From contig JACKGH010000001.1 of the NCBI GenBank assembly GCA_020632075.1, positions 729,778-793,777 on the forward strand: a DNA stretch of 64,000 nucleotides, written 5' to 3'. The stretch is from Candidatus Nomurabacteria bacterium (GTDB lineage Bacteria > Patescibacteriota > Minisyncoccia > Phycocordibacterales > UBA918). Below the pieces are notes generated by a model. It was not told the origin of the DNA and searched no databases. It saw nothing but the letters and a program-made list of their open reading frames with translations. A program made the position numbers and the translations under genes. Shown one piece after another: positions 8,181 to 34,060 of this stretch (its first letter is position 1; the number at the start of each line of letters is the position of its first letter).

Positions 8181-9272
8181 TTATGCTGAATCCTTAAGAG
8201 CAAGCCCGATCGCCGTTGCATACCCAAGTGAGTGTCTCCGATCGATCGGTGGAACAGTCTCATCAAGCGAGAAGCAGTTCTCCCAGACATTGCCCCGCAC
8301 GCACGGTACTTCGAGCGATTCAGTGAGATAGGTTGGGAATCCTTTAAGATTGGCGCTACCACCACACATAACGATCGAGGTGATACGACGATCCTGACTA
8401 TTTCCATTGCGTAAGTGCCAATATTCCATGCGCGTCGCAAGCTCGTCCTTTATCACCGATACAGTACTAATGAGTGCATCATGTACTTCTGAGGAATCAA
8501 CTCCACGCACCAATCCAACCGTGTTCTTCAAACGAGTGAGTTCTGCTTCAGCAGTATCAGCCCCAAGCACCTTGCGCATTGCTTGTGACAATTGGTCTCC
8601 TCCCAGATCGATGGTTGAAGTGTACAAGAGCGCGTCACGATACACGATACCGATCCCAGTACGTGTCTTTCCAAAGTCAACGAGCATAGTCGCACCGACT
8701 GCATCAGCTGGGATCACCGACCTAGCCATTGCTTGTGCCTCCACCTCAAACGACACTGGTCGCAGTCCAGCTTCAATACAGGCGTCATAGTACTTCTGGA
8801 TCGTCTCCCGCGCATACGCAGCGACTGATACCCGCAAGACCCGATCATCATCCTCGCCAGGCAACAGCGTGTAATCGAACAAGACATCTTTGGATGCGAT
8901 CGGTACATTTTCCTCAAGGCGAAACTCGAGCAGCCCGCGTACTTCCTTCAGTGGCACATTGCGCTTGATCTCCGTTTCAAACAGATACGCTCGTTCCTCT
9001 GGTAGTGAGACACGAATGAATTCTGCGCCGGTTTGCGCTTTGAACTCTTTCAAGACTGAGACTAGCTGCGCTGGCTCGTGCACTTGTCCACGCTGCACGA
9101 TGCCACTCGGGATTGGGATGTCTCCCCACAACCTTAACTCACGGTCTTTCCCCTGCCGCGCTGCTGGCTCAAACGCGACATACTTTAGAGAAGTATCAGA
9201 CACATCGACACCCACACAAGGCATAGTGAGATACGTTGGCGCAGGTAAAACTCGAGAAAGAGCTGAAAACAT
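8181..9272 (-). CDS. pilM: type IV pilus assembly protein PilM (actin-like ATPase fold)
   Basis: VGVDVSDTSLKYV and VDFGKTRTGIGIV actin/FtsA-like phosphate loops. Start ambiguous (9272 or 9224). Confidence 0.7.
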   Translation of the reverse strand: MFSALSRVLPAPTYLTMPCVGVDVSDTSLKYVAFEPAARQGKDRELRLWGDIPIPSGIVQRGQVHEPAQLVSVLKEFKAQTGAEFIRVSLPEERAYLFETEIKRNVPLKEVRGLLEFRLEENVPIASKDVLFDYTLLPGEDDDRVLRVSVAAYARETIQKYYDACIEAGLRPVSFEVEAQAMARSVIPADAVGATMLVDFGKTRTGIGIVYRDALLYTSTIDLGGDQLSQAMRKVLGADTAEAELTRLKNTVGLVRGVDSSEVHDALISTVSVIKDELATRMEYWHLRNGNSQDRRITSIVMCGGSANLKGFPTYLTESLEVPCVRGNVWENCFSLDETVPPIDRRHSLGYATAIGLALKDSA

Positions 9273-9321
9273 ATGTAGCTCTAGTATACGCTGTTCGTCG
9301 CCTGGTTTTAAGGCGCGAAAC

Positions 9322-9933
9322 TCACATCTTGTATAAAACAAACAATACCGCCAGCAGTGCCACTATGATCGAAACGATTCCCACATAGCGCTTGGCGTAC
9401 GAAACAGCCAAAGCGCCGAACTTGTACGTAGAGTACCCAACGATCGCGTAGCGCGCGCCACGTCCAAGCAACGACGCGGCAATGAAGACTCCGATACTTC
9501 CCTTCAAAACTGCTACCACCCAAGCAACGATCGTGTACGGCACTGGCGTAACCGCACCGATCACCGTCAAAACAAAGGTGCTCGAGTCATTACCACTCAC
9601 CATTTCATTGAACTGCTCAAGCATGCCTGGCGTCACCCACTGCATAATCGTTTCGAAGAAAAAAGCGGCAGCGAAGTAAGCACACAGACCACCGATAAGC
9701 GATGCGATCGTGGTTACTATTACCAAACGAACAGCCTTAGCTCGATCAGCCAAGATCGCAGCCACCAAAAATGGATCGGTGAGGATCGGGAGCGGAAGTG
9801 CTGATTCAACAAACGATATGACCGCGATCATGACCGTCCCCGAACGCGAACGCATAAAGCGACCTCCGGTACTCACTGCTTCTGACTGCAGCACCGCTTC
9901 CACCTTTTCTTGTAGCCGTTGCTCGAGCGACAT
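9322..9933 (-). CDS. DedA/YqaA (VTT-domain) family membrane protein
   Basis: LPLPILTDPFLVAAIL motif and polytopic profile. Confidence 0.65.
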   Translation of the reverse strand: MSLEQRLQEKVEAVLQSEAVSTGGRFMRSRSGTVMIAVISFVESALPLPILTDPFLVAAILADRAKAVRLVIVTTIASLIGGLCAYFAAAFFFETIMQWVTPGMLEQFNEMVSGNDSSTFVLTVIGAVTPVPYTIVAWVVAVLKGSIGVFIAASLLGRGARYAIVGYSTYKFGALAVSYAKRYVGIVSIIVALLAVLFVLYKM

Positions 9934-9936
9934 GTC

Positions 9937-10269
9937 TTAGTTGATCTTAGTACCAGCCGGCACTTCGTGACTTGGGTGAAGCAACGTGAATGTCTCTCCC
10001 GTACCACCAGCTAGGATCATGCCCTGACTCTCAAGACCACGGATCTCTCGAGTTGCGAGATTCACCAAAAACGGGCACTGCTTCCCTATCAATGTTTCGA
10101 TATCTTCAAAAAACTCTCGAATGCCGGATACGATCTGTCGTGGTGACTCTTCACCCACATCGACCGTCAGCCTAAGTAGTCGATCAGCTCCTTCTACAAC
10201 ATCTACCGTCTTGATCGTACCGATCCGAATTTCCAACTTTGCAAAATCATCGTATTGAATGGTTTCCAT
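9937..10269 (-). CDS. tRNA-binding protein (CsaA/Trbp111-like OB-fold)
   Basis: KLEIRIGTI...VEGADRLLRLTVDVGEE...QIVSGI matches the MetG C-terminal/CsaA family. Confidence 0.75.
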   Translation of the reverse strand: METIQYDDFAKLEIRIGTIKTVDVVEGADRLLRLTVDVGEESPRQIVSGIREFFEDIETLIGKQCPFLVNLATREIRGLESQGMILAGGTGETFTLLHPSHEVPAGTKIN

Positions 10270-10275
10270 AGATCG

Positions 10276-10653
10276 CTATTGTTTAGTGATAAAACTATCG
10301 AGAATGAGTGCAGCAGCAGACGCATCAACCATCGCATTTTTTCCCTGAACCCGTGCTGCCGCCTGGCTCGAATACTGCTCTGGCTCTAAGTGCACCGGTA
10401 TACCAATATGTAACGTGACATCAGTGATGAAGGTTTCGACCGCTTCGTGGATCGCGTTTGGCTCGCCATCGTTGTTGAGCGAGTGTCCGATGACGATCTC
10501 ACCTACTCCCCGCTCTGCCACTAACGCTTCAACATACTTTAGAAAATTCGCGTCGTTTGGTACCACCTCGTGCGGAAAAGCCATCGTTCCCCCATCATCA
10601 GTGAGTGCAATGCCGATCTTCTTTGATCCAAAATCAATTCCCATTCGTTTCAT
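10276..10653 (-). CDS. ruvX: Holliday-junction resolvase-like / pre-16S rRNA nuclease YqgF (RuvX)
   Basis: MGIDFGSKKIGIALTD N-terminal motif. Start at 10653 or 10644. Confidence 0.75.
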   Translation of the reverse strand: MKRMGIDFGSKKIGIALTDDGGTMAFPHEVVPNDANFLKYVEALVAERGVGEIVIGHSLNNDGEPNAIHEAVETFITDVTLHIGIPVHLEPEQYSSQAAARVQGKNAMVDASAAALILDSFITKQ

Positions 10654-10713
10654 GGGCTTTAGCATAGCATGATTACCTAATACATTGACCAGCATGACCA
10701 ATGTATTAGGTAG

Positions 10714-11472
10714 TCAATCAAACCTATATCCATTTTCATGCATGATGCGCCACATGCGGTGGTACCACAACCGATACCCATCAGAGCTTGGGTGGACACC
10801 GTCAAACGCAAATAGTTGGTTAGGGTTTTTGATAAACGGATTTCGTTCATCCTCGTTAAACAACTCTATGGTCGGCACATCATAGGCCAAAGCAGTTTCT
10901 GCAATCGCCTCCTGGACTCGAATACACCGACGCTTTAAAAAACCACGCATTATGCCAGGAAAGAGAGGAGCTGAACCAATGTTGTTATAGAGCAAAAACA
11001 ACACCCTGTGTTTACATAATTCATTAAGCTGTGGCAGCACCGTTTGCAGTACTTGTTGGATCTTACGAATACTTGTCAGATGCCACACATCATTACCGCC
11101 AACACTCACAATAATCAAATCAAACTGCTGCCCAAGCATCACCTCGATCTGTTTTGGAAGATCTCGCACCAAACCACCGTTTTGAGCAACATTTATAATC
11201 TCTGCGTCCGGATAATCTGTTGCTAGTCGTCCTGCAATAGTATCCTCCGGTCGACTCGCTCCTGTACCAACTGCTGTACTATCTCCCAAAATTAACACCC
11301 GCTTCCCACCTGAACCAGCACAAGCAAACGGCTTAGTGGTAAGTCCCAAGAACTTATTGCGTGATAATTTAATGATCATTCGTAAAGCTTGCAATACCAC
11401 CATTACAATAATAGTGTCACCAACATACACAAACCAATCGAGTGAGCTGAGCGAACTAAAGAAATCAATCAT
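10714..11472 (-). CDS. SGNH/GDSL hydrolase with N-terminal membrane anchor (paralog 1)
   Basis: VLILGDSTAVG (GDS block) and DGVHPSSDGY (DxxH block). N-terminal TM helix. Confidence 0.7.
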   Translation of the reverse strand: MIDFFSSLSSLDWFVYVGDTIIVMVVLQALRMIIKLSRNKFLGLTTKPFACAGSGGKRVLILGDSTAVGTGASRPEDTIAGRLATDYPDAEIINVAQNGGLVRDLPKQIEVMLGQQFDLIIVSVGGNDVWHLTSIRKIQQVLQTVLPQLNELCKHRVLFLLYNNIGSAPLFPGIMRGFLKRRCIRVQEAIAETALAYDVPTIELFNEDERNPFIKNPNQLFAFDGVHPSSDGYRLWYHRMWRIMHENGYRFD

Positions 11473-11482
11473 GTAAACACCA

Positions 11483-12232
11483 TTAACTGTACAAAGCTTG
11501 AACGTACGGCGCAATCTGCTGCCTTACCTCTGCATACCAAATCTCATACCCTCGGTCATTAGGATGAATGCCATCAGGTGCAAAATGTACCCCGCCCTGT
11601 CGCAGCGGATCACTACTTCGCTCATGAAAGAGAGGAACATGCACAACCCCAGTGGCCGCACACACCGCACCACAAGCACGAGATACTTTACGACTATGCC
11701 ATGAATACAAATATCGCACTGGCAAACGGAAAAACTGTGCCGCACCAACATTGTTTACTGACACCAGCACTGTTACGGGTGTGTTGAACTTTTGTGCAAT
11801 ACGTCTAAGAATCTGTTCCAAGCGAGCTGCAATCGTTTGGCAACGGGTCAACTTCAAAGTATCAATTCCTCCAATCTGCACGATCACCAGATCAAATGAT
11901 TCATCTGCCATTTCATCAAGCTTAGTAATAAGCTCCTTTAGACCCATTGCGTTCTGCGCAGCGTTGATAACTGTAAACTCAGGATGATCAGCAATCAATC
12001 TACCAGCAAGTGAAAAGGCGGGCGTGGTAGCGCCAGTGCCATAAGCCGTGCTGTCACCAACAATAAGTACTTTTGCTCGTGGATTCGACTGCACCTTTTC
12101 TGCCGGCCGCGCACGCTTCCCTTCCTGCACTGCACGATATCCCCGAACGCTAATTAATGACAATTCTACAAATACGAACACAATCACCACACCTAGCAAT
12201 GCAAACCCAATACTGGCACCTAGATCATACAT
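11483..12232 (-). CDS. SGNH/GDSL hydrolase with N-terminal membrane anchor (paralog 2, tandem duplicate)
   Basis: VLIVGDSTAYG and DGIHPNDRGY. Same architecture as 10714..11472. Confidence 0.7.
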   Translation of the reverse strand: MYDLGASIGFALLGVVIVFVFVELSLISVRGYRAVQEGKRARPAEKVQSNPRAKVLIVGDSTAYGTGATTPAFSLAGRLIADHPEFTVINAAQNAMGLKELITKLDEMADESFDLVIVQIGGIDTLKLTRCQTIAARLEQILRRIAQKFNTPVTVLVSVNNVGAAQFFRLPVRYLYSWHSRKVSRACGAVCAATGVVHVPLFHERSSDPLRQGGVHFAPDGIHPNDRGYEIWYAEVRQQIAPYVQALYS

Positions 12233-12383
12233 GTTGACATTATGGCATACGGATTGACAACGACAATGTACCTTTACACGCAGGTACACTTGCAGTTTGA
12301 CATCTTTTAAAGTACGACGTCTTCATCCTATATACCTAGACCAGTTAGTAACTCACTGGCAGAATAGGGAGAACGAAAACTCC

Positions 12384-13010
12384 ATGAAAAAACTACCTCG
12401 ATTACTCCTGGCGTTTGCTATGCAACTTCCAACTGCAGTATACAGCTTCTTAGTTACAACTTTTTTAATGCGGATTTGTGTGGTACGACCCTTAAAACTA
12501 GTTGTTCCTCGAGGTTCCCTTATTATTTCAAACCATCAAAGCTGGAGCGACCCGTTCCTCATAACGTACCATCTTGGATGGCGTAATGTGTTCCGTAATC
12601 TGCCCGTACATTTTCCAGTCACCTCTCATTTTATGACCATGCCATTGATCCGCTGGTATCTATGGTCACTGCAATGCTTTAACGTTGGAGACACCAATTT
12701 AGATCGTGCACGAGCACTTATTAGAATGCGCGACTTACTACAAAGCAAGCAAACGGTTATGCTGTTCCCGGAGGGTCGATGTATCAGAGACAGCAACAAC
12801 GTGGAAGAGTTTCATCGAGGTATTGATATGCTACTCATGGAAGATATTCCGCTCGTACTCGTTCGAGTAGAAAACTTTAACAACTGGTCAATTCTACCTG
12901 GATATCCAAAGCCAACTATGACACTTACTCGCCTTCCCGATCAACAAAATCTCGAAGAGAAACGAGAAGTGATTCGCTCATTTTACAAAGACACCCAATC
13001 AAAAAGATAG
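12384..13010 (+). CDS. lysophospholipid acyltransferase family protein (PlsC/OlsA-like O-acyltransferase)
   Basis: NHQSWSDP (HX4D acyltransferase motif) and FPEGR block. Start set at ATG 12384 (MKKLPRLL). First gene of a 4-gene overlapping operon. Confidence 0.7.
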   Translation: MKKLPRLLLAFAMQLPTAVYSFLVTTFLMRICVVRPLKLVVPRGSLIISNHQSWSDPFLITYHLGWRNVFRNLPVHFPVTSHFMTMPLIRWYLWSLQCFNVGDTNLDRARALIRMRDLLQSKQTVMLFPEGRCIRDSNNVEEFHRGIDMLLMEDIPLVLVRVENFNNWSILPGYPKPTMTLTRLPDQQNLEEKREVIRSFYKDTQSKR

Positions 13011-13014
13011 GCGT

Positions 13015-13689
13015 ATGTCTTACTCTCGTCCATCTCAACTTGTTGTTCAGACTGAAGCAGATTTACCTACTGATAACAAACTCCTCTTTCTCAGAGAACG
13101 TGAACAAAAGTGCTATTTACAAAAACCCGTCACCCAACAGCTCCCATGGCTACTTGGCCGTCTCGCAGCTAAAAAAGCGATCCAGGATTTCTTTGCAACA
13201 CACAATCAGACATTACAACTGACCGATATTGAGGTATACAACACAGAAACCGGTTCTCCCTCCTACATTCTCCATGACGAAATCGTATCACGCACATCAA
13301 TACTCCTCTCGATTTCTCACACATCATCTTGTGGAGTGGCTCTCGTTACACCAGAAAATAACCATGCTGGAATCGGGATTGATATTGAACAAATTAGAGC
13401 ATTCAACACAGAAACCATCTCTCATTTTTTGACTCCTGCAGAGTACAGGTTGTATCAGGGCATTGACGTAAAGAAGCAACCTCAGATGGCAACCATCTAC
13501 TGGACTTTAAAAGAAGCATATCTAAAAGCTATAGGAACCGGACTGCGAACCCATCCTCAGCGAATTATGATCACTTTTGACAACGGAGGTTGTCCATCGG
13601 CTTACGAAAGTAACACTGGTAAGCTTATTCAGGCTTCGTTATACTATGAAGCATACGAAGGTTACATTATTTCAACAGTTGTATTATGA
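13015..13689 (+). CDS. 4'-phosphopantetheinyl transferase (Sfp type)
   Basis: GIDIE and WTLKEAYLKAIGTG motifs. Confidence 0.75.
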   Translation: MSYSRPSQLVVQTEADLPTDNKLLFLREREQKCYLQKPVTQQLPWLLGRLAAKKAIQDFFATHNQTLQLTDIEVYNTETGSPSYILHDEIVSRTSILLSISHTSSCGVALVTPENNHAGIGIDIEQIRAFNTETISHFLTPAEYRLYQGIDVKKQPQMATIYWTLKEAYLKAIGTGLRTHPQRIMITFDNGGCPSAYESNTGKLIQASLYYEAYEGYIISTVVL

Positions 13690-13943
13690 ATTCATACGAG
13701 GAGGTTGTATGCGAAGTAAAACAATTAATAGCAACTAAGCTCGGCCATACTATCGAACACATCAAACCATCAAGTCTTATAACAGACCTAACCGTTGATT
13801 CAATACAACTGTTTGAACTCCTTATTGCTTTCGAGCAACATTACCAACTTCAAACAGCGTACGAGGATATTGCTCACATCAACACTGTAGGTGATATCGC
13901 TCAGTATATTGCACATAGCAAATACCAGTTTAGCTGCGTATGA
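13686..13943 (+). CDS. acyl carrier protein (dedicated ACP)
   Basis: DLTVDSIQLFELLIAFE, a DSL-type phosphopantetheine attachment site. 4-nt overlaps with both neighbours. Confidence 0.8.
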   Translation: MNSYEEVVCEVKQLIATKLGHTIEHIKPSSLITDLTVDSIQLFELLIAFEQHYQLQTAYEDIAHINTVGDIAQYIAHSKYQFSCV

Positions 13944-14572
13944 TCACTTATCGAGTCGCTCAATCGGCGACTGACTTTAAAAATGCAGCAACCCTTGTAC
14001 ACACCGCTTACATGCAAGAGGGATACATCTCAGAGCAAAAACCATCTGGTATTAGCTCTTTCCTGAATAGACCAGGAGCAGCAACCATTGTCGCAATCGA
14101 AGATAATACTGTGCGGGGTACAATTTCAATAGTAAAAGACTCTGATAGAGGACTACCTATGGACTGCACGTACAAAGAACAAGTTGATGGGTTACGAACC
14201 GACGGCCGACACTTAGCAGAAATCTGTCAATTTGCCACCGACCAAAACCAGCAATCTGACCTTCCAGCAAGAAATACATCGCTGGTAACCCTCGGCCTAT
14301 TTGCACATATCGTGCAAATAGGCCTTGCTGACAGTACTATCTCGGATCTATGTTTTACAGTCAACAAAAAACATGAGGGATTCTACCGTGCGATTGGTTG
14401 CACAACTATCGGACCGCAGACCAACTATGCTCGAGCTAACGGGGCTGTATCACAAGGGTTTTTCTTACATCTCGCATCGCTACAGAAACAAAAAGAGACG
14501 AATCCATTTATTGGGAAAATACTGACCTATCCCGTTAACAAGGAAATAACTGACCCTACACTACTCAACTAG
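13940..14572 (+). CDS. N-acyl amino acid synthase / OlsB-FeeM-like N-acyltransferase (GNAT/autoinducer-synthase fold)
   Basis: Block-wise similarity remembered for the FeeM/OlsB family, ending in the IGPQTNY block characteristic of that family. Confidence 0.55.
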   Translation: MITYRVAQSATDFKNAATLVHTAYMQEGYISEQKPSGISSFLNRPGAATIVAIEDNTVRGTISIVKDSDRGLPMDCTYKEQVDGLRTDGRHLAEICQFATDQNQQSDLPARNTSLVTLGLFAHIVQIGLADSTISDLCFTVNKKHEGFYRAIGCTTIGPQTNYARANGAVSQGFFLHLASLQKQKETNPFIGKILTYPVNKEITDPTLLN

Positions 14573-15276
14573 AGTTGTGCAACTGAACCGTTCTGAAACG
14601 GAGCAGTTATTTTGATCACCATCCCATCCTCTAAGGTCACTACTCGATCGCAGTATTTTGTGTACTCTGCTTCATGCGTTACCATCACAATAGTCTGCCC
14701 AGCATGATGCAGCGCTCGTAACTGCTCTATCACCTGTTGCCCAGACCGACTATCGAGATTTGCCGTTGGCTCGTCTGCAAACAAAATCTTTGGATTTCCT
14801 GCAATCGCTCGCGCAATTGAAACACGCTGTTGCTCTCCTCCCGACAATTCAGCTGGACGGTTGTCTTCTTTTCCTGCTAAACCAACATGTCGCAACGCTT
14901 CACGCGCAGACTCTGCTGCCGTATCCCAATCCTGACCACGCATAAGTAGTGGTGTCAGAATATTTTCTAATGCACTAAGATCAGGGATAAGCGCATAATC
15001 TTGAAACACATATCCCATGGTTTTCAAACGAAACTCATTGAGTGCTGTCGCTGATAGAGCTTGCAAATCTTGACCATCAAGCACTACCTTACCTGCTGAT
15101 GGAGTATCGAGAGCTGACAGCTGATACAAAAGTGTTGACTTCCCTGCTCCTGAACGTCCCATTATTGCCACAAACTCACCAGGCGCCACTGATAAATCGA
15201 TACCTTTCAGTACTTCATTTTGTACTTGACCATCGTTGTACACCCTCCATAACTTTCTAGCTTCAATCATTGCCAT
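14569..15276 (-). CDS. ABC transporter ATP-binding protein (MacB/YknY/LolD type)
   Basis: Walker A GRSGAGKST, signature LSGGEQQRVSIARA, Walker B ILFADEP. Confidence 0.85.
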   Translation of the reverse strand: MAMIEARKLWRVYNDGQVQNEVLKGIDLSVAPGEFVAIMGRSGAGKSTLLYQLSALDTPSAGKVVLDGQDLQALSATALNEFRLKTMGYVFQDYALIPDLSALENILTPLLMRGQDWDTAAESAREALRHVGLAGKEDNRPAELSGGEQQRVSIARAIAGNPKILFADEPTANLDSRSGQQVIEQLRALHHAGQTIVMVTHEAEYTKYCDRVVTLEDGMVIKITAPFQNGSVAQL

Positions 15277-15277
15277 A

Positions 15278-16525
15278 CTACTTTCTACCTAAAATTGCAT
15301 TAAGTGTATTCCCTTTTGCCACAAGCCACGCCGGAACAAAACCAGCGATAACTGCTACCAGCGCAAATGTCACTGCCTGAACCAACATTCCTCCCATCGT
15401 AATACTCAACGACGCATTCGCATATGGGAAATCAAGTGGATGCTCAATGAAATATGGGATCAGTAAAAACTGCGTAACCACAATTGCAAGCGTAACACCA
15501 ACCAGCACGTACACCAATGCTTGTGTTACGTACGCAAACTCGATTGCTTGTGGAGTGATACCAATGGCTTTCAGAATACCTATTTGCCTCCTCCGAGAAA
15601 GTGCATTGATGAAAATAACAATAAAAATTGTAATTGATGCTACTGTGACACCAATACTACCAACGATAAGCGATAGCGATTGGAACGTATCACGCACGTC
15701 AACCACAAATTTTGGGATATCTTCAGTGAAGGAGTTGATCTCCCCATACTCCGCAAGCTCACTATCACGAAGTCGATCACGTATCACGCCACTTGAATAC
15801 CCCGAACTCAGCCGCACCACAATCTGATTTGCATTGTAGTCGATCCGATTAAACATTCGGCGGAAATCTCGCTCTGTAATATACGCAGCAATTGAAATAA
15901 AGTCTGACTTTGAATCTAAAATTCCTTTTACAATGAACTCACGACTTTGATCGCCAGCGGTCACCATAACCTTATCTCCTGGATACACTCCTTGCAGAGA
16001 ATCAAATACATTTCCGTATTCATCAGCATAGCGATCAACATTGTATTTCCCAAGCACAATGTACCCACTCTCTTCGGGATCTAAAAATGCCCCTTCGCCT
16101 ATCAGTTGGTCGAGGCTAGTTGTCTGCTTCTCATCGAGCGGATTAATACCTGTTACATTGAGCGCAATGATGTCAGGATCAGAATTTAAACTTCGTCGCT
16201 CTTCATAATTTGCTTCAATAGTGACAATGTCGCTATATCGAGCCGAATACGATGCTATCTCGTGATACGTATCGAGTCGTTCAAGAAAATGTTGGGTTTC
16301 ACTAATTCTCGTCTCGCCCTCAAGCGGGCTTATGTTTATATCACCAAGCACATTGACACGTACCTGTTCGGTTGCCGCGTCAACAATCCCGATAAGAATA
16401 CCACTCAGTGTAACCAGGTTTAAAAAAGTGAACATGATAATCGTCACAATTAAACCAGTAGCCCAACCATTTGCGCTTTGTATTTGCCGCAACCCTAAGA
16501 ATAAACCAACGCGCAAGTTACGCAT
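15278..16525 (-). CDS. ABC transporter permease, FtsX/MacB-type
   Basis: N-terminal TM helix, large extracytoplasmic loop and C-terminal 3-TM FtsX-like bundle. Confidence 0.8.
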   Translation of the reverse strand: MRNLRVGLFLGLRQIQSANGWATGLIVTIIMFTFLNLVTLSGILIGIVDAATEQVRVNVLGDINISPLEGETRISETQHFLERLDTYHEIASYSARYSDIVTIEANYEERRSLNSDPDIIALNVTGINPLDEKQTTSLDQLIGEGAFLDPEESGYIVLGKYNVDRYADEYGNVFDSLQGVYPGDKVMVTAGDQSREFIVKGILDSKSDFISIAAYITERDFRRMFNRIDYNANQIVVRLSSGYSSGVIRDRLRDSELAEYGEINSFTEDIPKFVVDVRDTFQSLSLIVGSIGVTVASITIFIVIFINALSRRRQIGILKAIGITPQAIEFAYVTQALVYVLVGVTLAIVVTQFLLIPYFIEHPLDFPYANASLSITMGGMLVQAVTFALVAVIAGFVPAWLVAKGNTLNAILGRK

Positions 16526-16528
16526 ATG

Positions 16529-18022
16529 CTATGGAAGTACTATACGAGCACCAACTGGCACTCCCTCAATTTCAACCAAACCATCACTTCCTTTAACACC
16601 AAGCGAGACTACTTGTTGTTGCACAGACACCCCATCATCGACCCAAACCAGGCTGGTAGTGCCTGTCTTTACAACATATCGATCTGGTAACACCAGCACA
16701 TCTTCGATACGCTCAACTTCAATGCGAACATCTGCGTTTAATCCTTCACGCAACCACACTGGTTCAGTGTCTAACATGACCGTCGTTTCGTAATACGATA
16801 CACCAGTTACATCCGTGGACACCGGGGAGACAAAAGAGACAGTTGCTAGATACTCCACTGTTGGTTCGGCGTCAAATATTACCGATGCACGATCACCGAC
16901 CATAACTTTAGTAATATCAATTTCTGGCACCTGCACCAACAACTCATACTCTCCTTCTTGCACAATTGTTACAGTTTGACCCAATCCAGCAGGCTCTCCC
17001 ACACGCATCGCAACTTCTGACACTACTCCAGCAAATGGTGCTCGGATTGTATAATCAGCTATTCGTGCTGCTTGTTGTGCTAACGATGACTCAGCTTCAG
17101 CAACCCAAGCAGTTGCTTGCGCCAACACTTCAGTTACCGGTCCAGCATTGACCAGTCGTTCATTCTCTTCTGCTAACGCGAGTTCTTCTTGAGCCGACTG
17201 TAGTGCAGCATCCCGCTGTGCCACAAGCAAATCATACGCGCTTTGTAACATGACATACGACGGACTACGCTTATTTGGAACAGGAACTTGCCAATCAGTG
17301 CTTCTATACGCCTCGGCAGCATCAAACTGAATATATAGACCACAATCTCCCAGTGGTTCAGGCGTTGTTTTGTTACCAGGGTACTTACCCGAACCCAACC
17401 CAGAGAGCACATACGACACGTTCGCATCTGCTCGGGAGCCAAACAACGACAGTAAGTACAATCCTTCTTCCTCACACAAGTAGCTACCACTAATCGAAGG
17501 TGGAGTATCGTCATTGGTCACATCCACCGGATACGCTCGCAAATCATTTGAAAGAAGTTGCTGTCGTGCATTGCGAATTGCTTGCTCATACTCAAGCGAA
17601 ATACTTGCTAATGCCGCTACAGCAACTTCAGTACTCTTCTCAGCTACCGCCCGCTCCTCCATGGGAGCTCCACGCAGCAATTCCGCACGCTGTTCTTTAG
17701 CTGCTCGCACTCGTTCTAGCACTGCATCGTACTCAGCAACCAGCGCGTCGCTAGTCAGTGATGCAATTACATCACCCGCGGCCACCTGATCTCCAACAGA
17801 AAAATATACCTGTTGAATTGTGCCTGGCACCGCAAAACCTAGACGAGTAAGTTGATCAACATCAATCTTACCTGACGCAATAACCGTCTGAACTATCGTA
17901 CCGAGAGAGACTGTCGTACTCTCTACAACCCTATCTGAAGGCAGCATATGTTGCATGTATCCCAGCCCCGCACCAGCAAGAATTATACTGAGCGCAAACA
18001 CAAACAACCAGAATTTTTTCAT
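16529..18022 (-). CDS. periplasmic adaptor (HlyD/MacA/YknX-like membrane fusion protein)
   Basis: N-terminal TM helix, coiled-coil hairpin and lipoyl/beta-barrel regions. Start at 18037 or 18022 (GGTGG 6 nt upstream). Confidence 0.7.
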   Translation of the reverse strand: MKKFWLFVFALSIILAGAGLGYMQHMLPSDRVVESTTVSLGTIVQTVIASGKIDVDQLTRLGFAVPGTIQQVYFSVGDQVAAGDVIASLTSDALVAEYDAVLERVRAAKEQRAELLRGAPMEERAVAEKSTEVAVAALASISLEYEQAIRNARQQLLSNDLRAYPVDVTNDDTPPSISGSYLCEEEGLYLLSLFGSRADANVSYVLSGLGSGKYPGNKTTPEPLGDCGLYIQFDAAEAYRSTDWQVPVPNKRSPSYVMLQSAYDLLVAQRDAALQSAQEELALAEENERLVNAGPVTEVLAQATAWVAEAESSLAQQAARIADYTIRAPFAGVVSEVAMRVGEPAGLGQTVTIVQEGEYELLVQVPEIDITKVMVGDRASVIFDAEPTVEYLATVSFVSPVSTDVTGVSYYETTVMLDTEPVWLREGLNADVRIEVERIEDVLVLPDRYVVKTGTTSLVWVDDGVSVQQQVVSLGVKGSDGLVEIEGVPVGARIVLP

Positions 18023-18271
18023 AAAAAGCCACCGCATATTGGTCAGACTATCGCTCCAGTATACATCACACGAACTCTATCTGACACTAAGTTAAACATA
18101 GCTGCAATTTGAACGCCTGTGACACCAACAGTCGATACATACTGTGCACTTACACCCAAAAGTTCAGTTACCAACCATTACCTTTACATAAAAATTCAGC
18201 TCTGGTAGTCCTTTGCCTAAAATCATACGTGCTACAATTCGGTAACTACATGACCTAAAAGCAACACCCGT

Positions 18272-19132
18272 ATGACAACCAACTTTGACTATAGCGAAGC
18301 CTTCTCGAGGAACATTGGACTAGTTTCATTAGAAGAGCAGGAGAAGATTAAGTCCTACACTATCGCAATTCCTGGCATGGGTGGTGTTGGCGGCGCACAT
18401 TTCATCTCACTTGTACGGCAAGGTTTTGAACGTTTCAAAATTGCTGACCTTGATCACTATGAACTCAAAAACTTCAACCGTCAGTACGGCGCCCAATTAG
18501 AAACTGTTGGTCGTCCAAAGGTAGATGTGATGCGGGAAGAAGCATTGAAAATTAATCCTAACTGCAAGATTGAGATTTTCCCAGAAGGCATCTCTCATGA
18601 CAACATTAACGCCTTTCTGACAGGAGTTGATCTAGGAATAGATGCAATTGATGCATTCACTGTCGACATACGACGACTATTTATCAATAGTTGTCACCGT
18701 CAAAACATCCCCGTCATTTCTGCCGGCCCAATTGGGTTTGGGACTGCCTTTTTGATCTTCAAGCCAGATGGACCAAACTATGATACCTACTTCAATATCA
18801 AAGATTCTATGTCGTATGAAAAGCAACTTCTCTCTTTCTTGGTTGGATTAGTACCAAAACTTCTTCAGCGCTCCTACATGAAGGGGATCAATCTCTCAGA
18901 AAAACGCGGACCATCATCAATCGGTTCAATTAATCTCTGCGCCGGAGTCGTCACAATACACGCTGTCAAAATCCTTCTGAAAAAAGGTCATGTGAAAGCT
19001 GTGCCATACTACCATCAGTTTGATCTCATGCGTGAAAGATATGTTACAAAAAGACTTTGGTTTGGAAACAAAAACCCTATCCAAAAACTAAAACTTTACC
19101 TCGCTAAATTCTTAGTAAAAGACCAACCATAA
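18272..19132 (+). CDS. tcdA: ThiF-family enzyme, TcdA/CsdL-like tRNA threonylcarbamoyladenosine dehydratase
   Basis: IAIPGMGGVGGAHF Rossmann loop, DxDxxxxxNxNRQ, INPNCKIEIF, IDAIDA, IPVISAGPIGFG. Collinear with E. coli TcdA as remembered. Confidence 0.6.
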   Translation: MTTNFDYSEAFSRNIGLVSLEEQEKIKSYTIAIPGMGGVGGAHFISLVRQGFERFKIADLDHYELKNFNRQYGAQLETVGRPKVDVMREEALKINPNCKIEIFPEGISHDNINAFLTGVDLGIDAIDAFTVDIRRLFINSCHRQNIPVISAGPIGFGTAFLIFKPDGPNYDTYFNIKDSMSYEKQLLSFLVGLVPKLLQRSYMKGINLSEKRGPSSIGSINLCAGVVTIHAVKILLKKGHVKAVPYYHQFDLMRERYVTKRLWFGNKNPIQKLKLYLAKFLVKDQP

Positions 19133-19138
19133 ACTTGT

Positions 19139-19765
19139 ATGAGTGAACTATATTCGTACCTCACCTCCTTTGAATCTGCAACCAACTTGTTTTTTACCGC
19201 AATTCAAAATCACGGTTTACTTGCGGTTTTGATGGGCGTTTTTCTTTTAGGGGAAACTGTCATCATTACCTCGCTTATCCTAACCCAGCAAGGAGTTCTC
19301 GACTTATCTGAAGTGATCGTCGCGTCAACAATCGGATCTCTCCTTGCAGATTTATTTTGGTTTGTCATTGGCCGTTACCACCCACAAAATCTCATACCAA
19401 AATCGATTAGAGAAAACGTCTTCGGACCAACCAGTAATGTTCTAACCTCTCTTATTCGTGGCCGTTACTTTTTGGCGCTACTATTCTTACAATTTTTCAT
19501 AGGTACGCGACTAATGATTATCCTGTATCTCTCTCGCCAAAAAATTAGCCCCCTTCGCTTTGCAATATATGACTGTACAGGAACCTTTATATACCTAATT
19601 GTTTTTTCAATTCTCGGGCTCTATCTAGGTCAAACCATCAACGAGGTCTTACCAACATATAAGCTCACAACTAGTATAATCACTGGCATCCTTGTCATTA
19701 CGCTCATTACCATTGTTTCTAGAAACATGATGCGTAAACTGAAGCTCGAGCAAACGTCACGATAA
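19139..19765 (+). CDS. DedA family (VTT domain) membrane protein
   Basis: LLGETVIITSLIL...ASTIGSLLADLFWFVIGR. Confidence 0.65.
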   Translation: MSELYSYLTSFESATNLFFTAIQNHGLLAVLMGVFLLGETVIITSLILTQQGVLDLSEVIVASTIGSLLADLFWFVIGRYHPQNLIPKSIRENVFGPTSNVLTSLIRGRYFLALLFLQFFIGTRLMIILYLSRQKISPLRFAIYDCTGTFIYLIVFSILGLYLGQTINEVLPTYKLTTSIITGILVITLITIVSRNMMRKLKLEQTSR

Positions 19766-19804: not shown

Positions 19805-19836
19805 AAAAAGAAAAGCCGGCAGCCGCCGACTTTTCT
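19805..19836. terminator. bidirectional terminator
   Basis: A-run, GC hairpin (cggc/gccg) and T-run between the DedA gene and the 3' end of tRNA-Arg. Confidence 0.45.
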
Positions 19837-19840
19837 TAGT

Positions 19841-19912
19841 GTGCTCTCGCCAGGAATCGAACCTGGAGCGCTGGTACCGCAAACCAGCATTTTATCCATT
19901 AAACTACGAGAG
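19841..19912 (-). tRNA. tRNA-Arg (anticodon read as GCG; isotype needs software confirmation)
   Basis: Manual fold on minus: acceptor gctctcg/cgagagc, D-arm identical to the TCT tRNA-Arg, anticodon stem ctggt/accag with loop ttGCGgt, T-arm ccagg-ttcgatt-cctgg. Confidence 0.6.
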
Positions 19913-28573: not shown

Positions 28574-28582
28574 TCTTCGCGT

Positions 28583-34058: not shown

Positions 34059-34060
34059 AA

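What the first reader, a model, noticed from the sequence alone, without database searches (positions are those of the whole stretch)
10714..18037. Self-contained aminolipid / N-acyl-amino-acid biosynthesis operon (OlsA-like + PPTase + ACP + OlsB/FeeM-like) with tandem SGNH hydrolases and a convergent exporter
Four overlapping genes at 12384..14572 encode a PlsC/OlsA-type O-acyltransferase, an Sfp-type phosphopantetheinyl transferase, a dedicated ACP and an N-acyl amino-acid synthase of the OlsB/GlsB/FeeM family. From established knowledge, that is the two-step logic of ornithine-lipid (OlsB/OlsA) and glycine-lipid (GlsB/GlsA) synthesis, here with its own carrier protein and activating enzyme. 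Immediately upstream and divergent sit two tandem, membrane-anchored SGNH/GDSL hydrolase paralogs (10714..12232), plausibly lipases feeding acyl chains. Immediately downstream, a MacA/B-YknXYZ-type exporter converges with a 4-nt stop-stop overlap (14569..14572) and no terminator, which suggests the exporter's fate is coupled to the operon. A genome that otherwise looks streamlined carrying a private ACP/PPTase pair only for this purpose is unusual. No acyl-ACP synthetase or FabH/FabD is present in the window, so how the ACP is loaded is an open question.
Basis: partly seen in the sequence, partly recalled or inferred. Interest (0 to 1): 0.8.

Follow-up and report, generated by a model that had tools for sequence, protein, structure and literature searches.

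The report
ACP-dependent N-acyl amino acid/oxazolone cluster
A tiny-genome Kaiserbacteria (CPR) bacterium devotes about 9 kb to a conserved gene set that most likely attaches a fatty acyl chain from its own carrier protein to an amino acid, activates or cyclises the product with a ThiF-type enzyme and exports it. This is a carrier-protein-dependent relative of the recently discovered acyl-oxazolone pathways, and I found no report of it in these host-dependent microbes.

Summary

The synthase is a true FeeM-family, carrier-protein-type N-acyl amino acid synthase, not an OlsB/GlsB type. The "OlsA-like" enzyme can only be called a generic PlsC-family acyltransferase.

Just past the exporter lie a ThiF-family gene (18272-19132) and a DedA gene (19139-19765) that belong to the same system.

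- The ThiF belongs to the clade that is fused or adjacent to nitroreductase-type flavin oxidases (FDO) and to N-acyl amino acid synthases. These are the OxzAB, TyzACB and TrzAS acyl-oxazolone pathways.
- About 8 independent CPR loci carry the same set in shuffled gene orders: two SGNH genes, the acyltransferase, the PPTase, the ACP, FeeM and ThiF, with or without FDO, DedA and a MacB-type exporter.
- This window lacks the FDO.

The most likely product is therefore an N-acyl amino acid that ThiF converts to a saturated oxazolone, or otherwise carboxyl-activates, before export.

How the ACP is acylated remains open. The window holds no FAS-II gene and no acyl-ACP synthetase.

Verdict: a new variant of a known kind, of moderately high interest.

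The parts
10714..11472 (-). SGNH1: membrane-anchored canonical SGNH/GDSL hydrolase. The ORF can extend to a TTG at 11514; the ATG at 11472 gives 252 aa.
   Evidence: PF13472 1e-19. Blocks GDS, QNGG, GGND and DGVHPS are conserved in 6 orthologs. One N-terminal TM segment is followed by a K/R-rich stretch. 47-63% identical to orthologs in L001-L016.
11483..12232 (-). SGNH2: paralog (about 30% identical to SGNH1). It keeps the Ser/Asp/His triad but lacks the oxyanion-hole Gly (block II) and Asn (block III). The ORF can extend to a GTG at 12289.
   Evidence: PF13472 4e-17. The ENAM and GG[IMV]D substitutions are seen in all 6 orthologs. TM segment plus K/R-rich flank.
12233..12383 (.). Divergent intergenic region between the SGNH operon and the AT-PPTase-ACP-FeeM operon.
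   Evidence: ORF map. The promoter consensus scan found no more sites than chance.
12384..13010 (+). PlsC-family (LPLAT) acyltransferase, 208 aa from the ATG at 12384. An upstream TTG at 12297 is possible, but homologs are 210-224 aa.
   Evidence: PF01553 2e-16. Invariant H51-x4-D56 and F-P-E-G in orthologs. TIGR00530 scores 37 bits against a 103-bit cutoff. No PDB sequence match. N-terminal hydrophobic segment.
13015..13689 (+). Sfp/HetI-type 4'-phosphopantetheinyl transferase (224 aa).
   Evidence: PF01648 6e-21. TIGR00556 scores 62 bits against a 45-bit cutoff, with two matched stretches. Adjacent to the ACP in most CPR loci; in L006 it sits in the FDO-ThiF-DedA operon instead.
13686..13943 (+). 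Dedicated acyl carrier protein (85 aa), Ser39 in DSIQLFELL.
   Evidence: PF00550 1.6e-9. Below every housekeeping AcpP model cutoff (best 54.8 against 71 bits). The motif is invariant in 8 orthologs. The family has about 100 clusters, and all named ones are CPR.
13940..14572 (+). FeeM-family N-acyl amino acid synthase (210 aa).
   Evidence: PF21926 1e-27. PDB 2g0b FeeM at E 2.6e-21. AF2 model pLDDT 91.4; Foldseek top hit 2g0b, TM 0.76-0.89. H145 and F148, which correspond to FeeM's carrier-protein/Ppant contact residues, are conserved.
14569..15276 (-). ABC ATPase of a MacB/LolD-type exporter. Its stop codon shares CTAG with the FeeM stop.
   Evidence: PF00005 8e-36; LolD and MacB models at 1e-58 to 1e-68, below their cutoffs. 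Sequence read.
15278..16525 (-). FtsX/MacB-type permease (415 aa, 4 TM).
   Evidence: PF02687 9e-11. Orthologs also hit MacB_PCD. 48-67% identical to orthologs.
16529..18037 (-). HlyD/MacA-type membrane-fusion adaptor (502 aa).
   Evidence: PF16576 and PF13437; TIGR01730 scores 114 bits against a 95-bit cutoff.
18038..18271 (.). Divergent intergenic region. In sister loci a 358-361 aa nitroreductase-type flavin oxidase (FDO) gene sits at this position; it is absent here.
   Evidence: L001, L005 and L006 carry an FDO between the exporter or PPTase and ThiF. tblastn of the L001 FDO against the whole window gives a best E of 3.
18272..19132 (+). ThiF-family adenylating enzyme of the oxazolone-synthetase (OxzB/TyzB/TrzS-associated) clade.
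   Evidence: PF00899 8e-43. NF006077 scores 353 bits against a 266-bit cutoff. It matches the ThiF part of the ThiF-FDO fusion model NF011424 (328 bits) and of the NAS-ThiF-FDO fusion model NF011425 (249 bits). 49 of 80 metagenomic relatives are fused or adjacent to an FDO, and 19 have a FeeM-like gene nearby. AF2 pLDDT 91.8 with an E1 fold. Nucleotide-binding residues are invariant and there are no CxxC motifs.
19139..19765 (+). DedA/VTT-family membrane protein, co-operonic with ThiF.
   Evidence: PF09335 2e-7, below the Pfam cutoff; weak match to the UptA model. Found directly downstream of ThiF in L001, L005, L006/7 and L016.
19808..19837 (.). Palindromic GC-rich hairpin with T and A runs between DedA and tRNA-Arg. 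Probably a bidirectional terminator that marks the right border of the cluster.
   Evidence: Terminator-like scan: 13 bp stem. tRNA-Arg at 19841-19913(-).

Best explanation
The region 10714-19765 is one conserved functional unit of a Candidatus Kaiserbacteria (CPR) genome. It is a carrier-protein-dependent version of the N-acyl amino acid / acyl-oxazolone pathway.

Proposed steps:
1. The Sfp-type PPTase converts the dedicated apo-ACP to holo-ACP. This follows from the domains and their adjacency.
2. The ACP is acylated by an unknown route. It could be an enzyme encoded outside the window, acyl-CoA-dependent loading by the PPTase, or the cluster's own PlsC-like and SGNH enzymes acting on scavenged lipids. 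This step is open.
3. The FeeM-family synthase transfers the acyl chain from acyl-ACP to the alpha-amino group of an amino acid. This is inferred from strong homology to FeeM and conservation of its carrier-protein contact residues. The identity of the amino acid is unknown.
4. The ThiF-family enzyme adenylates the free carboxylate of the N-acyl amino acid, which cyclises to a 2-alkyl-5(4H)-oxazolone. This is inferred from clade membership, gene fusions and the OxzB/TyzB/TrzS biochemistry.
5. Sister genomes add an O2-dependent FDO that desaturates the ring substituent. This genome has no such gene in the window. The end product would therefore be the saturated, more reactive oxazolone, its ring-opened derivative, or the plain N-acyl amino acid.
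6. The DedA protein and the MacB-type tripartite pump move the amphiphile across and out of the membrane. This is inferred from conserved linkage.

The PlsC-like acyltransferase and the two cytoplasm-facing, membrane-anchored SGNH paralogs are true members of the unit. They act either in acyl-chain supply or remodelling, or in tailoring the product. Their role is not resolved.
For: - Domain and family assignments.
- FeeM identity: PDB 2g0b at E 2.6e-21; Foldseek top hit FeeM at E 1e-16, against 1e-7 for the next GNAT; H145 and F148 conserved.
- The ACP serine is invariant.
- Rosetta-stone evidence: NCBIfam NF011425 (989 aa) aligns to the window FeeM at positions 32-173, to the window ThiF at 313-587, and to sister-locus FDOs at 616-797. 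A triple fusion is also seen in L053.
- Conserved CPR gene set in different gene orders: L001, L002, L003, L005, L006/7, L008/9 and L016. In L006 the PPTase lies in the same operon as FDO-ThiF-DedA.
- Census of 80 ThiF relatives: 36 ThiF-FDO fusions, 13 with an adjacent FDO, 19 with a FeeM-like gene.
- Sixteen longest-contig lengths are shared between the ACP and ThiF hit lists.
- Published biochemistry: a NAS plus a ThiF-like cyclase plus an FDO make acyl-oxazolones (OxzAB, TyzACB, TrzAS). ThiF alone yields the saturated cyclised intermediate when the FDO is disabled.
- Exporter genes also sit next to ThiF or ThiF-FDO genes in metagenomic contigs that lack the CPR add-ons: L021, L040, L058, L061 and L073.
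Against: - No product has been observed, so everything beyond the domain assignments is inference.
- The FDO, one of the three hallmark enzymes, is absent from the window. It could lie elsewhere in the genome, or ThiF could do something else here.
- Some CPR genomes have this ThiF with no FeeM or ACP within 10 kb (L013, L014, L015). ThiF is not obligately tied to the FeeM module.
- ThiF is far better conserved (58-71% identity) than FeeM (34-43%). That pattern would also fit a more general role.
- Characterised TyzA, TrzA and OxzA use acyl-CoA, not acyl-ACP.
- The window FeeM scores only 44-64 bits against the synthases that sit next to ThiF-FDO genes in the non-CPR-type loci.
- The source of the acyl chain is unknown.
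Confidence: 0.6

Rival explanations
1. Membrane aminolipid synthesis. FeeM makes a lyso-aminolipid, and the PlsC-like enzyme adds a second acyl chain (OlsB/OlsA or GlsB/GlsA logic) to give a phosphorus-free membrane lipid. ThiF and DedA would be bystanders or involved only in lipid flipping.
For: A PlsC-family acyltransferase with intact HX4D and FPEG motifs is always in the cluster. In the window it lies in the same operon as the ACP and FeeM. DedA proteins are lipid transporters (weak match to the UptA model).
Against: The synthase is not of the OlsB/GlsB family: there is no PF13444 hit. O-acylation in the Ols and Gls pathways needs a 3-hydroxyacyl chain from FAS-II (established knowledge), and no Fab gene is in the window. 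Patescibacteria generally lack FAS. A dedicated MacB-type exporter argues for a secreted product rather than a bulk membrane lipid. ThiF linkage and fusion with this type of synthase is strong.
Confidence: 0.15
2. The core function is acyl-chain salvage and remodelling of host-derived lipids. The SGNH enzymes deacylate scavenged (lyso)phospholipids, the ACP carries the chains, and the PlsC-like enzyme re-esterifies lysolipids (a Lands-type cycle). FeeM and ThiF form a minor branch.
For: Two membrane-anchored SGNH enzymes predicted to face the cytoplasm, plus a PlsC-like enzyme, an ACP and a PPTase, in an organism of a group that lacks fatty-acid synthesis and is thought to recycle lipids. SGNH1 plus the exporter plus ThiF persist without FeeM or ACP in L013.
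Against: FeeM is present in every locus that has the ACP and PPTase. The ACP family appears only with this cluster type where context is known. No enzyme for ATP-dependent fatty-acid activation was found in the window or detected in the sister CPR loci. This model does not explain the exporter or ThiF.
Confidence: 0.12
3. ThiF and DedA are functionally unrelated neighbours. ThiF would be, for example, a sulfur-carrier E1 for thiamin or molybdopterin synthesis, or a tRNA ct6A dehydratase. The true unit would then be only the reader's 10714-18037.
For: ThiF is much more widespread and more conserved than FeeM. It occurs alone in some CPR genomes (L015). Its fold is a generic E1: ThiF, MoeB and MccB are the top PDB hits.
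Against: It scores far below the ThiF, MoeB and TcdA model cutoffs (90 against 275, 79 against 266 and 70 against 304 bits). It scores above the cutoff of NF006077 and strongly matches the ThiF-FDO and NAS-ThiF-FDO fusion models. It has no Zn-binding CxxC motifs and no rhodanese domain (read from the sequence; no second invariant Cys in the alignment), and no ThiS/MoaD-like gene is evident next to it. 49 of 80 relatives are linked to an FDO and 19 of 80 to a FeeM-like gene. In L006 it is co-operonic with the cluster's PPTase.
Confidence: 0.1
4. An acyl-homoserine-lactone-like quorum signal synthase. The FeeM-like enzyme would act as a LuxI-type enzyme, using acyl-ACP and SAM.
For: FeeM-family enzymes share their fold with AHL synthases. 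LasI appears among the structural hits (TMq 0.61). It depends on acyl-ACP, and an exporter is present.
Against: No PF00765 (Autoind_synth) hit. FeeM is the top hit by nine orders of magnitude over all others. ThiF-dependent carboxyl activation has no role in AHL synthesis.
Confidence: 0.03

Closest known systems
FeeM/FeeL of the soil-eDNA fee cluster (N-acyl tyrosine synthase with its own ACP; PDB 2G0B)
   Same: Same Pfam family (PF21926). About 38% identity over roughly 160 residues (E 2.6e-21). Same predicted fold (TM up to 0.89). The His145 and Phe148 carrier-protein/Ppant contact residues are conserved. A dedicated ACP gene lies directly adjacent.
   Different: Here the synthase is joined to a ThiF-type activating enzyme, DedA, two SGNH enzymes, a PlsC-like acyltransferase, its own PPTase and a MacB-type pump. 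None of these neighbours was compared with the other fee-cluster genes, which these tools could not retrieve. The amino-acid specificity is unknown.
OxzAB (Pseudoalteromonas rubra) and TyzACB (M. tuberculosis Rv2336-Rv2338c) acyl-tyrazolone pathways
   Same: Same logic: a FeeM/LuxI-fold N-acyltransferase plus a ThiF-like ATP-dependent cyclase. Sister CPR loci also have the FDO desaturase. The window ThiF matches the ThiF part of ThiF-FDO fusion models, and its relatives are mostly ThiF-FDO fusions (papers read).
   Different: OxzA and TyzA use acyl-CoA; here the synthase is FeeM-like with a private ACP and PPTase. No FDO is in this window. The extra SGNH, acyltransferase, DedA and exporter genes are not part of Oxz or Tyz (Tyz lies next to mmpL9). 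The host is an ultra-small CPR bacterium.
TrzAS (Rv1356c/Rv1355c) acyl-tryptazolone pathway
   Same: Sister-locus FDOs match the C-terminal half of the Rv1355c family model (E 1e-35 to 1e-46). The window ThiF matches its N-terminal half (E 2e-16). TrzS shows that cyclisation can precede desaturation and that a saturated oxazolone is made when the FDO is inactive. That is the state expected for this FDO-less cluster.
   Different: TrzS is a fusion and belongs to a different ThiF subcluster. The window ThiF scores only 59 bits against that model, compared with 328 bits against the PRK14851-type model. TrzA uses short acyl-CoAs.
OlsB/OlsA and GlsB/GlsA aminolipid pathways
   Same: An N-acyltransferase that uses acyl-ACP sits next to a PlsC-family O-acyltransferase.
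   Different: The N-acyltransferase family differs: there is no PF13444 match. No 3-hydroxyacyl source is evident. ThiF and a dedicated exporter have no counterpart in those pathways.
[quoted passage not shown]
   Same: The same three-gene association of NAS, ThiF and nitroreductase. Strains lacking the ThiF and nitroreductase genes make only saturated N-acyl tyrosines.
   Different: In those clusters ThiF and the nitroreductase are present or absent together. Here ThiF is kept without the FDO. Those clusters have no ACP, PPTase, SGNH or acyltransferase genes.

Membership tests
FeeM family N-acyl amino acid synthase (PF21926) | Significant match to the family HMM above the curated cutoff | tested here: met
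   97.2 bits against a cutoff of 27, E 1e-27, covering profile positions 2-149 of 158.
FeeM family N-acyl amino acid synthase (PF21926) | Sequence and fold similarity to the solved FeeM structure (2G0B) | tested here: met
   phmmer E 2.6e-21. AF2 model pLDDT 91.4. Foldseek top six hits are all 2g0b chains, E 1e-16 and TM 0.76-0.89; the next GNAT is at E 1e-7.
FeeM family N-acyl amino acid synthase (PF21926) | Carrier-protein dependence: the contact residues (FeeM His145, Phe148) and a dedicated ACP partner | tested here: met
   Window H145 and F148 align to the FeeM K-H-x-x-F motif. H145 is invariant and F148 at least 90% conserved in 16 relatives. The role of these residues is taken from PMC11685415. 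The ACP gene overlaps the FeeM start by 4 nt.
FeeM family N-acyl amino acid synthase (PF21926) | N-acylation of an amino acid with acyl-ACP (enzymatic activity) | not testable with these tools
   Needs enzyme assays or expression followed by LC-MS.
OlsB/GlsB-type N-acyltransferase (PF13444 Acetyltransf_5) | Match to the PF13444 model | tested here: not met
   At E <= 0.01 only PF21926 is reported for 13940-14572.
OlsA/PlsC-type lysolipid O-acyltransferase | PF01553 domain with the HX4D and (F)PEG motifs | tested here: met
   PF01553 2e-16. H51-x4-D56 and F128-P-E-G131 are invariant in orthologs.
OlsA/PlsC-type lysolipid O-acyltransferase | Equivalog-level match to PlsC, or a demonstrated lyso-aminolipid substrate | tested here: not met
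   TIGR00530 scores 37 bits against a 103-bit cutoff. No other specific model matches and there is no PDB sequence match. Substrate use cannot be tested here.
Sfp-type PPTase | ACPS-superfamily domain, about 220-240 aa with a pseudo-dimeric two-domain build | tested here: met
   PF01648 6e-21. TIGR00556 scores 62 bits against a 45-bit cutoff with 2 matched stretches. 224 aa. Weak HetI match, 52 bits. The WxxKEAxxK motif is visible in the sequence.
Acyl carrier protein | PP-binding domain with a conserved Ser in the DSx motif | tested here: met
   PF00550 1.6e-9. D38-S39-I40 lies within the invariant DSIQLFELL of 8 orthologs.
Housekeeping FAS-II AcpP | Score above the AcpP equivalog cutoffs | tested here: not met
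   Best score is 54.8 bits against a 71-bit cutoff; TIGR00517 scores 45.5 against 70.45. This is a specialised ACP.
Acyl-oxazolone synthetase system (OxzAB/TyzACB/TrzAS) | ThiF-family enzyme of the FDO-associated clade with intact nucleotide-binding residues | tested here: met
   NF006077 scores 353 bits against a 266-bit cutoff. NF011424 (ThiF-FDO fusion) scores 328 bits over its ThiF part. GxGxxG, D59, R70, Q71, K83 and D127 are invariant. 49 of 80 relatives are fused or adjacent to an FDO. Direct comparison with TyzB and OxzB sequences was not possible.
Acyl-oxazolone synthetase system (OxzAB/TyzACB/TrzAS) | Partner N-acyl amino acid synthase encoded nearby | tested here: met
   FeeM-like gene 3.7 kb upstream in the window. 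The same association is seen in L001, L005, L006, L008, L010 and L016, and in 19 of 80 metagenome loci. Fusion model NF011425 and locus L053 join the domains in one protein.
Acyl-oxazolone synthetase system (OxzAB/TyzACB/TrzAS) | Nitroreductase-superfamily flavin-dependent oxidase (FDO-A) fused or adjacent | tested here: not met
   No FDO anywhere in the 64-kb window (tblastn best E 3; Pfam scans). It is present in sister loci L001, L005, L006 and L014. The rest of the genome was not available.
Acyl-oxazolone synthetase system (OxzAB/TyzACB/TrzAS) | Formation of a 5(4H)-oxazolone product | not testable with these tools
   Requires expression and LC-MS, or in vitro reconstitution.
MacB-type tripartite ABC exporter | ABC ATPase, FtsX-type four-TM permease with a periplasmic domain, and an HlyD/MacA adaptor | tested here: met
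   PF00005; PF02687 (with MacB_PCD in orthologs); PF16576 and TIGR01730 above its cutoff. Four TM segments predicted.
SGNH/GDSL hydrolase | Blocks I, II, III and V (Ser, Gly, Asn, Asp-x-x-His) | tested here: inconclusive
   SGNH1 has all four blocks. SGNH2 keeps Ser, Asp and His, but Gly (block II) and Asn (block III) are replaced in all 6 orthologs. Both pass PF13472.

The most novel reading that the evidence does not exclude
In CPR bacteria that cannot make fatty acids, the cluster is a self-sufficient machine that turns harvested acyl chains into a secreted effector. The cytoplasm-facing SGNH pair, one of which is a non-canonical member lacking the oxyanion-hole residues, would work with the PlsC-like enzyme acting as a tafazzin-style transacylase. 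Together they would strip acyl chains from host-derived glycerolipids directly onto the private ACP, with no ATP-dependent activation. FeeM would then make an N-acyl amino acid. ThiF, kept without its FDO partner, would convert it into a saturated azlactone that serves as a reactive N-acyl-aminoacyl donor or as a signal delivered to the host through DedA and the MacB pump. The same ThiF, FDO and synthase core, shared at 52-60% identity with DPANN archaea, would then be a common tool of episymbiotic ultra-small cells.
Probability: 0.1. Interest if true: 0.85.

Novelty: new variant of a known kind. Interest (0 to 1): 0.62.

Why it matters
- **Cost to a tiny genome.** CPR/Patescibacteria have roughly 1-Mb genomes, are reported to lack fatty-acid synthesis and depend on hosts. 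Even so, this lineage keeps about 9 kb (about 1% of the genome) for a lipid-like small-molecule pathway with its own carrier protein, activating enzyme and exporter. About 100 related ACPs, and many more ThiF relatives, occur across Paceibacteria-type CPR. The ThiF/FDO/synthase core also occurs in DPANN archaea.
- **Candidate mediator of the symbiosis.** If the product is an exported N-acyl amino acid or acyl-oxazolone, it is a concrete and testable candidate for a molecule that mediates the episymbiont-host interaction.
- **Wider reach for oxazolone pathways.** It would extend the recently discovered oxazolone pathways, so far studied in Proteobacteria, Actinobacteria and Planctomycetes, to carrier-protein-dependent chemistry.
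- **A sharper question about ACP loading.** The unresolved loading step asks how an organism without FAS obtains acyl-ACP.

Tried and rejected
- **Promoter and terminator scans, 10-20.5 kb.** No more sites than in shuffled sequence. Only the hairpin at 19808-19837 looks meaningful.
- **Rfam on 9.5-21 kb.** Only the two tRNAs.
- **Genome-collection scan with FeeM peptide patterns.** A 16-sequence alignment was too diverse to use. The 6-sequence alignment returned a single locus, L005. The same patterns found nothing confirmable in metagenome contigs, so the census had to be built from ThiF.
- **Word-index protein search with FeeM.** Only 2 hits. The exhaustive HMMER search was needed.
- **Foldseek against AFDB50,** to look for TyzB and OxzB directly. 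The library was unavailable. The PDB search shows only a generic E1 fold. The nearest non-classical hit, AclA (9egb), has no paper in the library.
- **PDB sequence search with the acyltransferase.** No hit.
- **Search for an FDO remnant or a displaced FDO in the window.** None found.
- **Literature searches** for this cluster type in Patescibacteria/CPR. No report was found.
- **Considered and rejected for ThiF:** thiamin/molybdopterin E1 and TcdA (scores far below their cutoffs, no CxxC motifs, no carrier-protein partner).
- **Considered and rejected for the synthase:** LuxI-type AHL synthase (no PF00765 hit) and OlsB-type synthase (no PF13444 hit).

Full report
**Source and observation.** The FeeM-like protein is 100% identical to a protein of a Candidatus Kaiserbacteria MAG (locus tag KC877_02475) carried on a contig of about 1.0 Mb. 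The window therefore comes from a CPR/Patescibacteria genome.

- two tandem SGNH/GDSL genes on the minus strand (10714-11514 and 11483-12289);
- on the plus strand, a PF01553 acyltransferase, a PF01648 PPTase (13015-13689), a PF00550 carrier protein (13686-13943) and a PF21926 FeeM-family synthase (13940-14572);
- converging on these, an ABC ATPase, an FtsX permease and an HlyD adaptor (14569-18037).

For the acyltransferase, the ATG at 12384 gives 208 aa, which matches homolog lengths better than the TTG at 12297. The two converging stop codons share the tetranucleotide CTAG at 14569-14572. PPTase/ACP and ACP/FeeM overlap by 4 nt each. The acyltransferase and PPTase are separated by 4 nt rather than overlapping.

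**The four biosynthetic proteins.**
- *Synthase.* It is a true FeeM relative. It scores 97 bits against a 27-bit Pfam cutoff and E 2.6e-21 against PDB 2g0b. An AlphaFold model (pLDDT 91.4) has all FeeM chains as its six best Foldseek matches (E about 1e-16, TM 0.76-0.89). The next GNATs are at E 1e-7, and the AHL synthase LasI is further down the list at E 1.2e-6 with a TM-score of 0.61. It gives no PF13444 (OlsB/GlsB) or PF00765 (LuxI) match. Mutagenesis implicated FeeM His145 and Phe148 in interaction with its carrier protein or the Ppant arm (PMC11685415). These align with window H145 and F148, which are invariant or nearly so in the subfamily.
- *ACP.* It carries Ser39 in a DSIQLFELL motif that is invariant in eight orthologs. 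It scores below all housekeeping AcpP cutoffs, so it is a specialised carrier.
- *Acyltransferase.* It has invariant HX4D and FPEG motifs. It scores far below the PlsC model cutoff and matches no specific family, and it has no PDB sequence match. "OlsA-like" is therefore unproven.

A 234-bp divergent intergenic region follows the exporter. After it come a ThiF-family gene (18272-19132) and a DedA/VTT gene (19139-19765), then a strong palindromic hairpin and a tRNA.

The ThiF protein passes the cutoff of NCBIfam NF006077. It also matches the ThiF portion of two fusion-protein models: NF011424 (ThiF-FDO, 328 bits) and NF011425 (989 aa). The window FeeM-like protein matches the N-terminus of that same NF011425 model (positions 32-173; ThiF matches 313-587). 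Nitroreductase-type proteins from sister loci match its positions 616-797, and they also match the C-terminal half of the Rv1355c family model. This is a Rosetta-stone link joining synthase, ThiF and FDO.

The literature explains the link. A FeeM/LuxI-fold N-acyltransferase, a ThiF-like ATP-dependent cyclase and a nitroreductase-superfamily flavin oxidase (FDO) together make N-acyl oxazolones:
- OxzAB in Pseudoalteromonas (bioRxiv 10.1101/2020.06.11.147165; review PMC12596934);
- TyzACB in M. tuberculosis (PMC10404671);
- TrzAS, i.e. Rv1356c/Rv1355c (PMC12856293).

The same trio is associated with stieleriacines, thalassotalic acids and kyonggic acids (PMC12479983).

**Comparative genomics.** The closest FeeM relatives were found by exhaustive HMMER search (1775 representatives at E<=1e-3, but only 6 at E<=1e-30). 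The loci that encode them show the same neighbourhood with shuffled gene order:
- L005 (Kaiserbacteria HKST-UBA39) and L001: same order as the window, plus a 358-360 aa FDO between the adaptor gene and ThiF.
- L002 and L003: SGNH (in L002), acyltransferase, PPTase, ACP, FeeM, then a converging exporter.
- L006/7 (Nomurabacteria): FeeM, ACP, two acyltransferases and two SGNH genes on one strand, divergent from PPTase-FDO-ThiF-DedA. Here the PPTase is co-operonic with ThiF.
- L008/9 (complete Kaiserbacteria genome CP064968): ThiF, then two SGNH genes and the acyltransferase, then PPTase-ACP-FeeM. No FDO.
- L016: ThiF-DedA, then two SGNH genes and the acyltransferase, then PPTase-ACP-FeeM, then the ABC gene. 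No FDO.

In Pacearchaeota contigs (L010-12, L019), a 298-aa FeeM-like gene lies divergent from ThiF plus FDO. A second FeeM/LuxI-like gene there sits next to an AMP-binding enzyme.

I fetched 80 metagenomic loci encoding ThiF relatives of 42-69% identity and ran a local HMM census on them:

| Feature in the 80 loci | Count |
|---|---|
| ThiF-FDO fusions | 36 |
| Separate FDO nearby | 13 |
| No FDO detected | 31 (18 on short contigs) |
| FeeM-like synthase in the locus | 19 (includes one triple fusion, L053) |
| Cluster's ACP/PPTase/acyltransferase/SGNH set present | 1 (the CPR-type L016) |

A profile search with the ACP family found 101 clusters. All named ones come from Kaiserbacteria, Nomurabacteria or Paceibacterota. 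Sixteen of their longest-contig lengths coincide with those in the ThiF hit list, which implies that the two genes share those contigs.

The linkage is not absolute. L013 has ThiF, SGNH1 and the exporter but no FeeM. L014 has only FDO plus ThiF. L015 has ThiF alone within 10 kb on either side.

ThiF is much better conserved than the other cluster genes:

| Protein | Identity to orthologs |
|---|---|
| ThiF | 58-71% |
| FeeM | 34-43% |
| PPTase | 34-42% |
| Acyltransferase | 32-37% |

Relatives in DPANN archaea are 52-60% identical to the window ThiF.

**The missing FDO.** tblastn with the L001 FDO finds nothing in the 64-kb window (best E 3). No nitroreductase domain appeared in the Pfam scans of the other window ORFs. 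L008 and L016 are FDO-less in the same way.

In TrzS, cyclisation precedes desaturation, and the saturated cyclised intermediate accumulates when the FDO is disabled or O2 is limiting. An FDO-less cluster would therefore be expected to stop at a saturated 5(4H)-oxazolone. From general chemistry, this is a hydrolytically labile, activated acyl donor. Alternatively the cluster could release the N-acyl amino acid itself.

The ThiF protein has the invariant nucleotide-binding residues (GxGxxG, D59, R70/Q71, K83, D127). The sequence contains no CxxC zinc motif and no rhodanese domain. It scores far below the ThiF, MoeB and TcdA cutoffs. Its model (pLDDT 91.8) has a generic E1 fold.

**Accessory genes.**
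- *SGNH proteins.* They form two orthologous groups conserved across loci. SGNH1 is canonical. SGNH2 keeps Ser, Asp and His, but has lost the block II Gly and block III Asn in all six orthologs. Both have a single N-terminal hydrophobic segment with an acidic N-flank and a K/R-rich C-flank. By the positive-inside rule, this places the catalytic domains in the cytoplasm at the membrane surface (inference). They are not secreted lipases.
- *Exporter.* It is linked to the cluster in the window, L001, L002, L003, L005 and L013, and lies nearby in L008. Exporter genes also sit beside ThiF or ThiF-FDO genes in contigs that lack the CPR add-ons (L021, L040, L058, L061, L073). This supports export of the ThiF-pathway product.
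- *DedA.* It follows ThiF directly in five CPR loci. DedA proteins are lipid flippases or transporters (established knowledge), and the window protein weakly matches the UptA model.

**Acyl supply.** I scanned 40 window ORFs of 85 aa or more: the 11 cluster genes plus 29 others, which covers nearly all ORFs of 212 aa or more. None carries an AMP-binding, Fab or PlsX/Y-type domain, though several large ORFs have no Pfam match at all. Patescibacteria are reported to lack fatty-acid synthesis and to recycle lipids from other organisms (PMC12455944). How the private ACP is acylated is therefore an open question. Three options remain, none tested:
- an enzyme encoded elsewhere in the genome;
- direct transfer of acyl-phosphopantetheine from acyl-CoA by the Sfp-type PPTase, a known in vitro promiscuity (my own knowledge);
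- transacylation from scavenged lipids by the PlsC-like and SGNH enzymes. Tafazzin is a precedent for CoA-independent transacylation in the PlsC superfamily (my own knowledge).

**Verdict.** The aminolipid (OlsB/OlsA) interpretation is only partly supported.

The best explanation (confidence about 0.6) is an ACP-dependent, FeeM-type N-acyl amino acid pathway. Its product is carboxyl-activated or cyclised by an oxazolone-clade ThiF and then exported. This genome holds an FDO-less variant with CPR-specific additions.

The rivals are a membrane aminolipid, lipid salvage and remodelling, an unrelated ThiF, and an AHL-like signal. All are less consistent with the fusions, the conserved neighbourhoods and the family tests.

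Full-text searches found no paper that describes this cluster type in CPR or DPANN. I rate it a new variant of a known kind.

Noticed in passing
window 49414-50142 (-): A 242-aa ORF matches the cyclodipeptide synthase family (PF16715, 32.6 bits against a 27-bit cutoff; PDB CDPS 7qaw at E 3.6e-16). This would be a second small-molecule biosynthetic gene in this roughly 1-Mb CPR genome. Its neighbours are a 233-aa ORF with no Pfam match (48708-49409) and an ion-channel gene (47994-48692).
   Followed up: partly
window 11483-12232 (-) and orthologs L002:404-1186, L005:1711-2469, L006:7309-8085, L008:11639-12367, L016:4738-5469: The SGNH2 paralog group keeps the Ser/Asp/His triad. In every ortholog it has replaced the oxyanion-hole Gly (block II) and Asn (block III, GG[I/M/V]D). 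This suggests a non-hydrolytic role, such as acyl transfer, or altered chemistry.
   Followed up: partly
L010, L011, L012, L019 (Pacearchaeota contigs); ThiF at L010:10001-10855: DPANN archaeal contigs, which carry archaeal RNA polymerase Rpb2 and Rpb5 genes, encode a ThiF 52-60% identical to the CPR one. It is flanked by a FeeM-like gene and an FDO. A second FeeM/LuxI-like gene sits next to an AMP-binding enzyme. This points to cross-domain sharing of the pathway among ultra-small symbionts.
   Followed up: partly
L008:6107-9811 (Kaiserbacteria CP064968): In this FDO-less relative, a thioester-reductase-type SDR (NAD_binding_4), a WbuX-like PP-loop amidotransferase and an aldehyde dehydrogenase lie directly upstream of ThiF and divergent from it. 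This may be an alternative tailoring set acting on an ACP thioester.
   Followed up: no
window 24720-26678 (-): A 652-aa fusion of an acetyl-CoA hydrolase/transferase domain with a C-terminal GNAT acetyltransferase domain. It may bear on acyl-CoA metabolism in this organism.
   Followed up: no
window 26795-30468 (+) and 30870-35647 (-): The same 64-kb window holds a second MacA/MacB-type exporter (adaptor, ABC, FtsX with MacB_PCD) and an AcrB-type RND pump with its adaptor. That is three efflux systems in a very small genome.
   Followed up: no
window 37819-39219, 39259-42255, 42248-43828, 45092-46588 (all -): Four large ORFs (466, 998, 526 and 498 aa) have no Pfam match at E<=1e-5.
   Followed up: no
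window 8181-10701 compared with L006:13037-15505 and L014:4871-6778: The cluster lies next to the same housekeeping block (RuvX, tRNA-binding protein, a second DedA/VTT gene, PilM) in Kaiserbacteria, Nomurabacteria and Minisyncoccia. It sits on different sides of that block, and different modules have been lost. This suggests an old, vertically inherited locus that decays in a modular way.
   Followed up: partly
window 18038-18271: This 234-bp intergenic region is where sister genomes carry the FDO gene. No FDO-derived coding remnant is detectable, so the loss is clean or old.
   Followed up: yes
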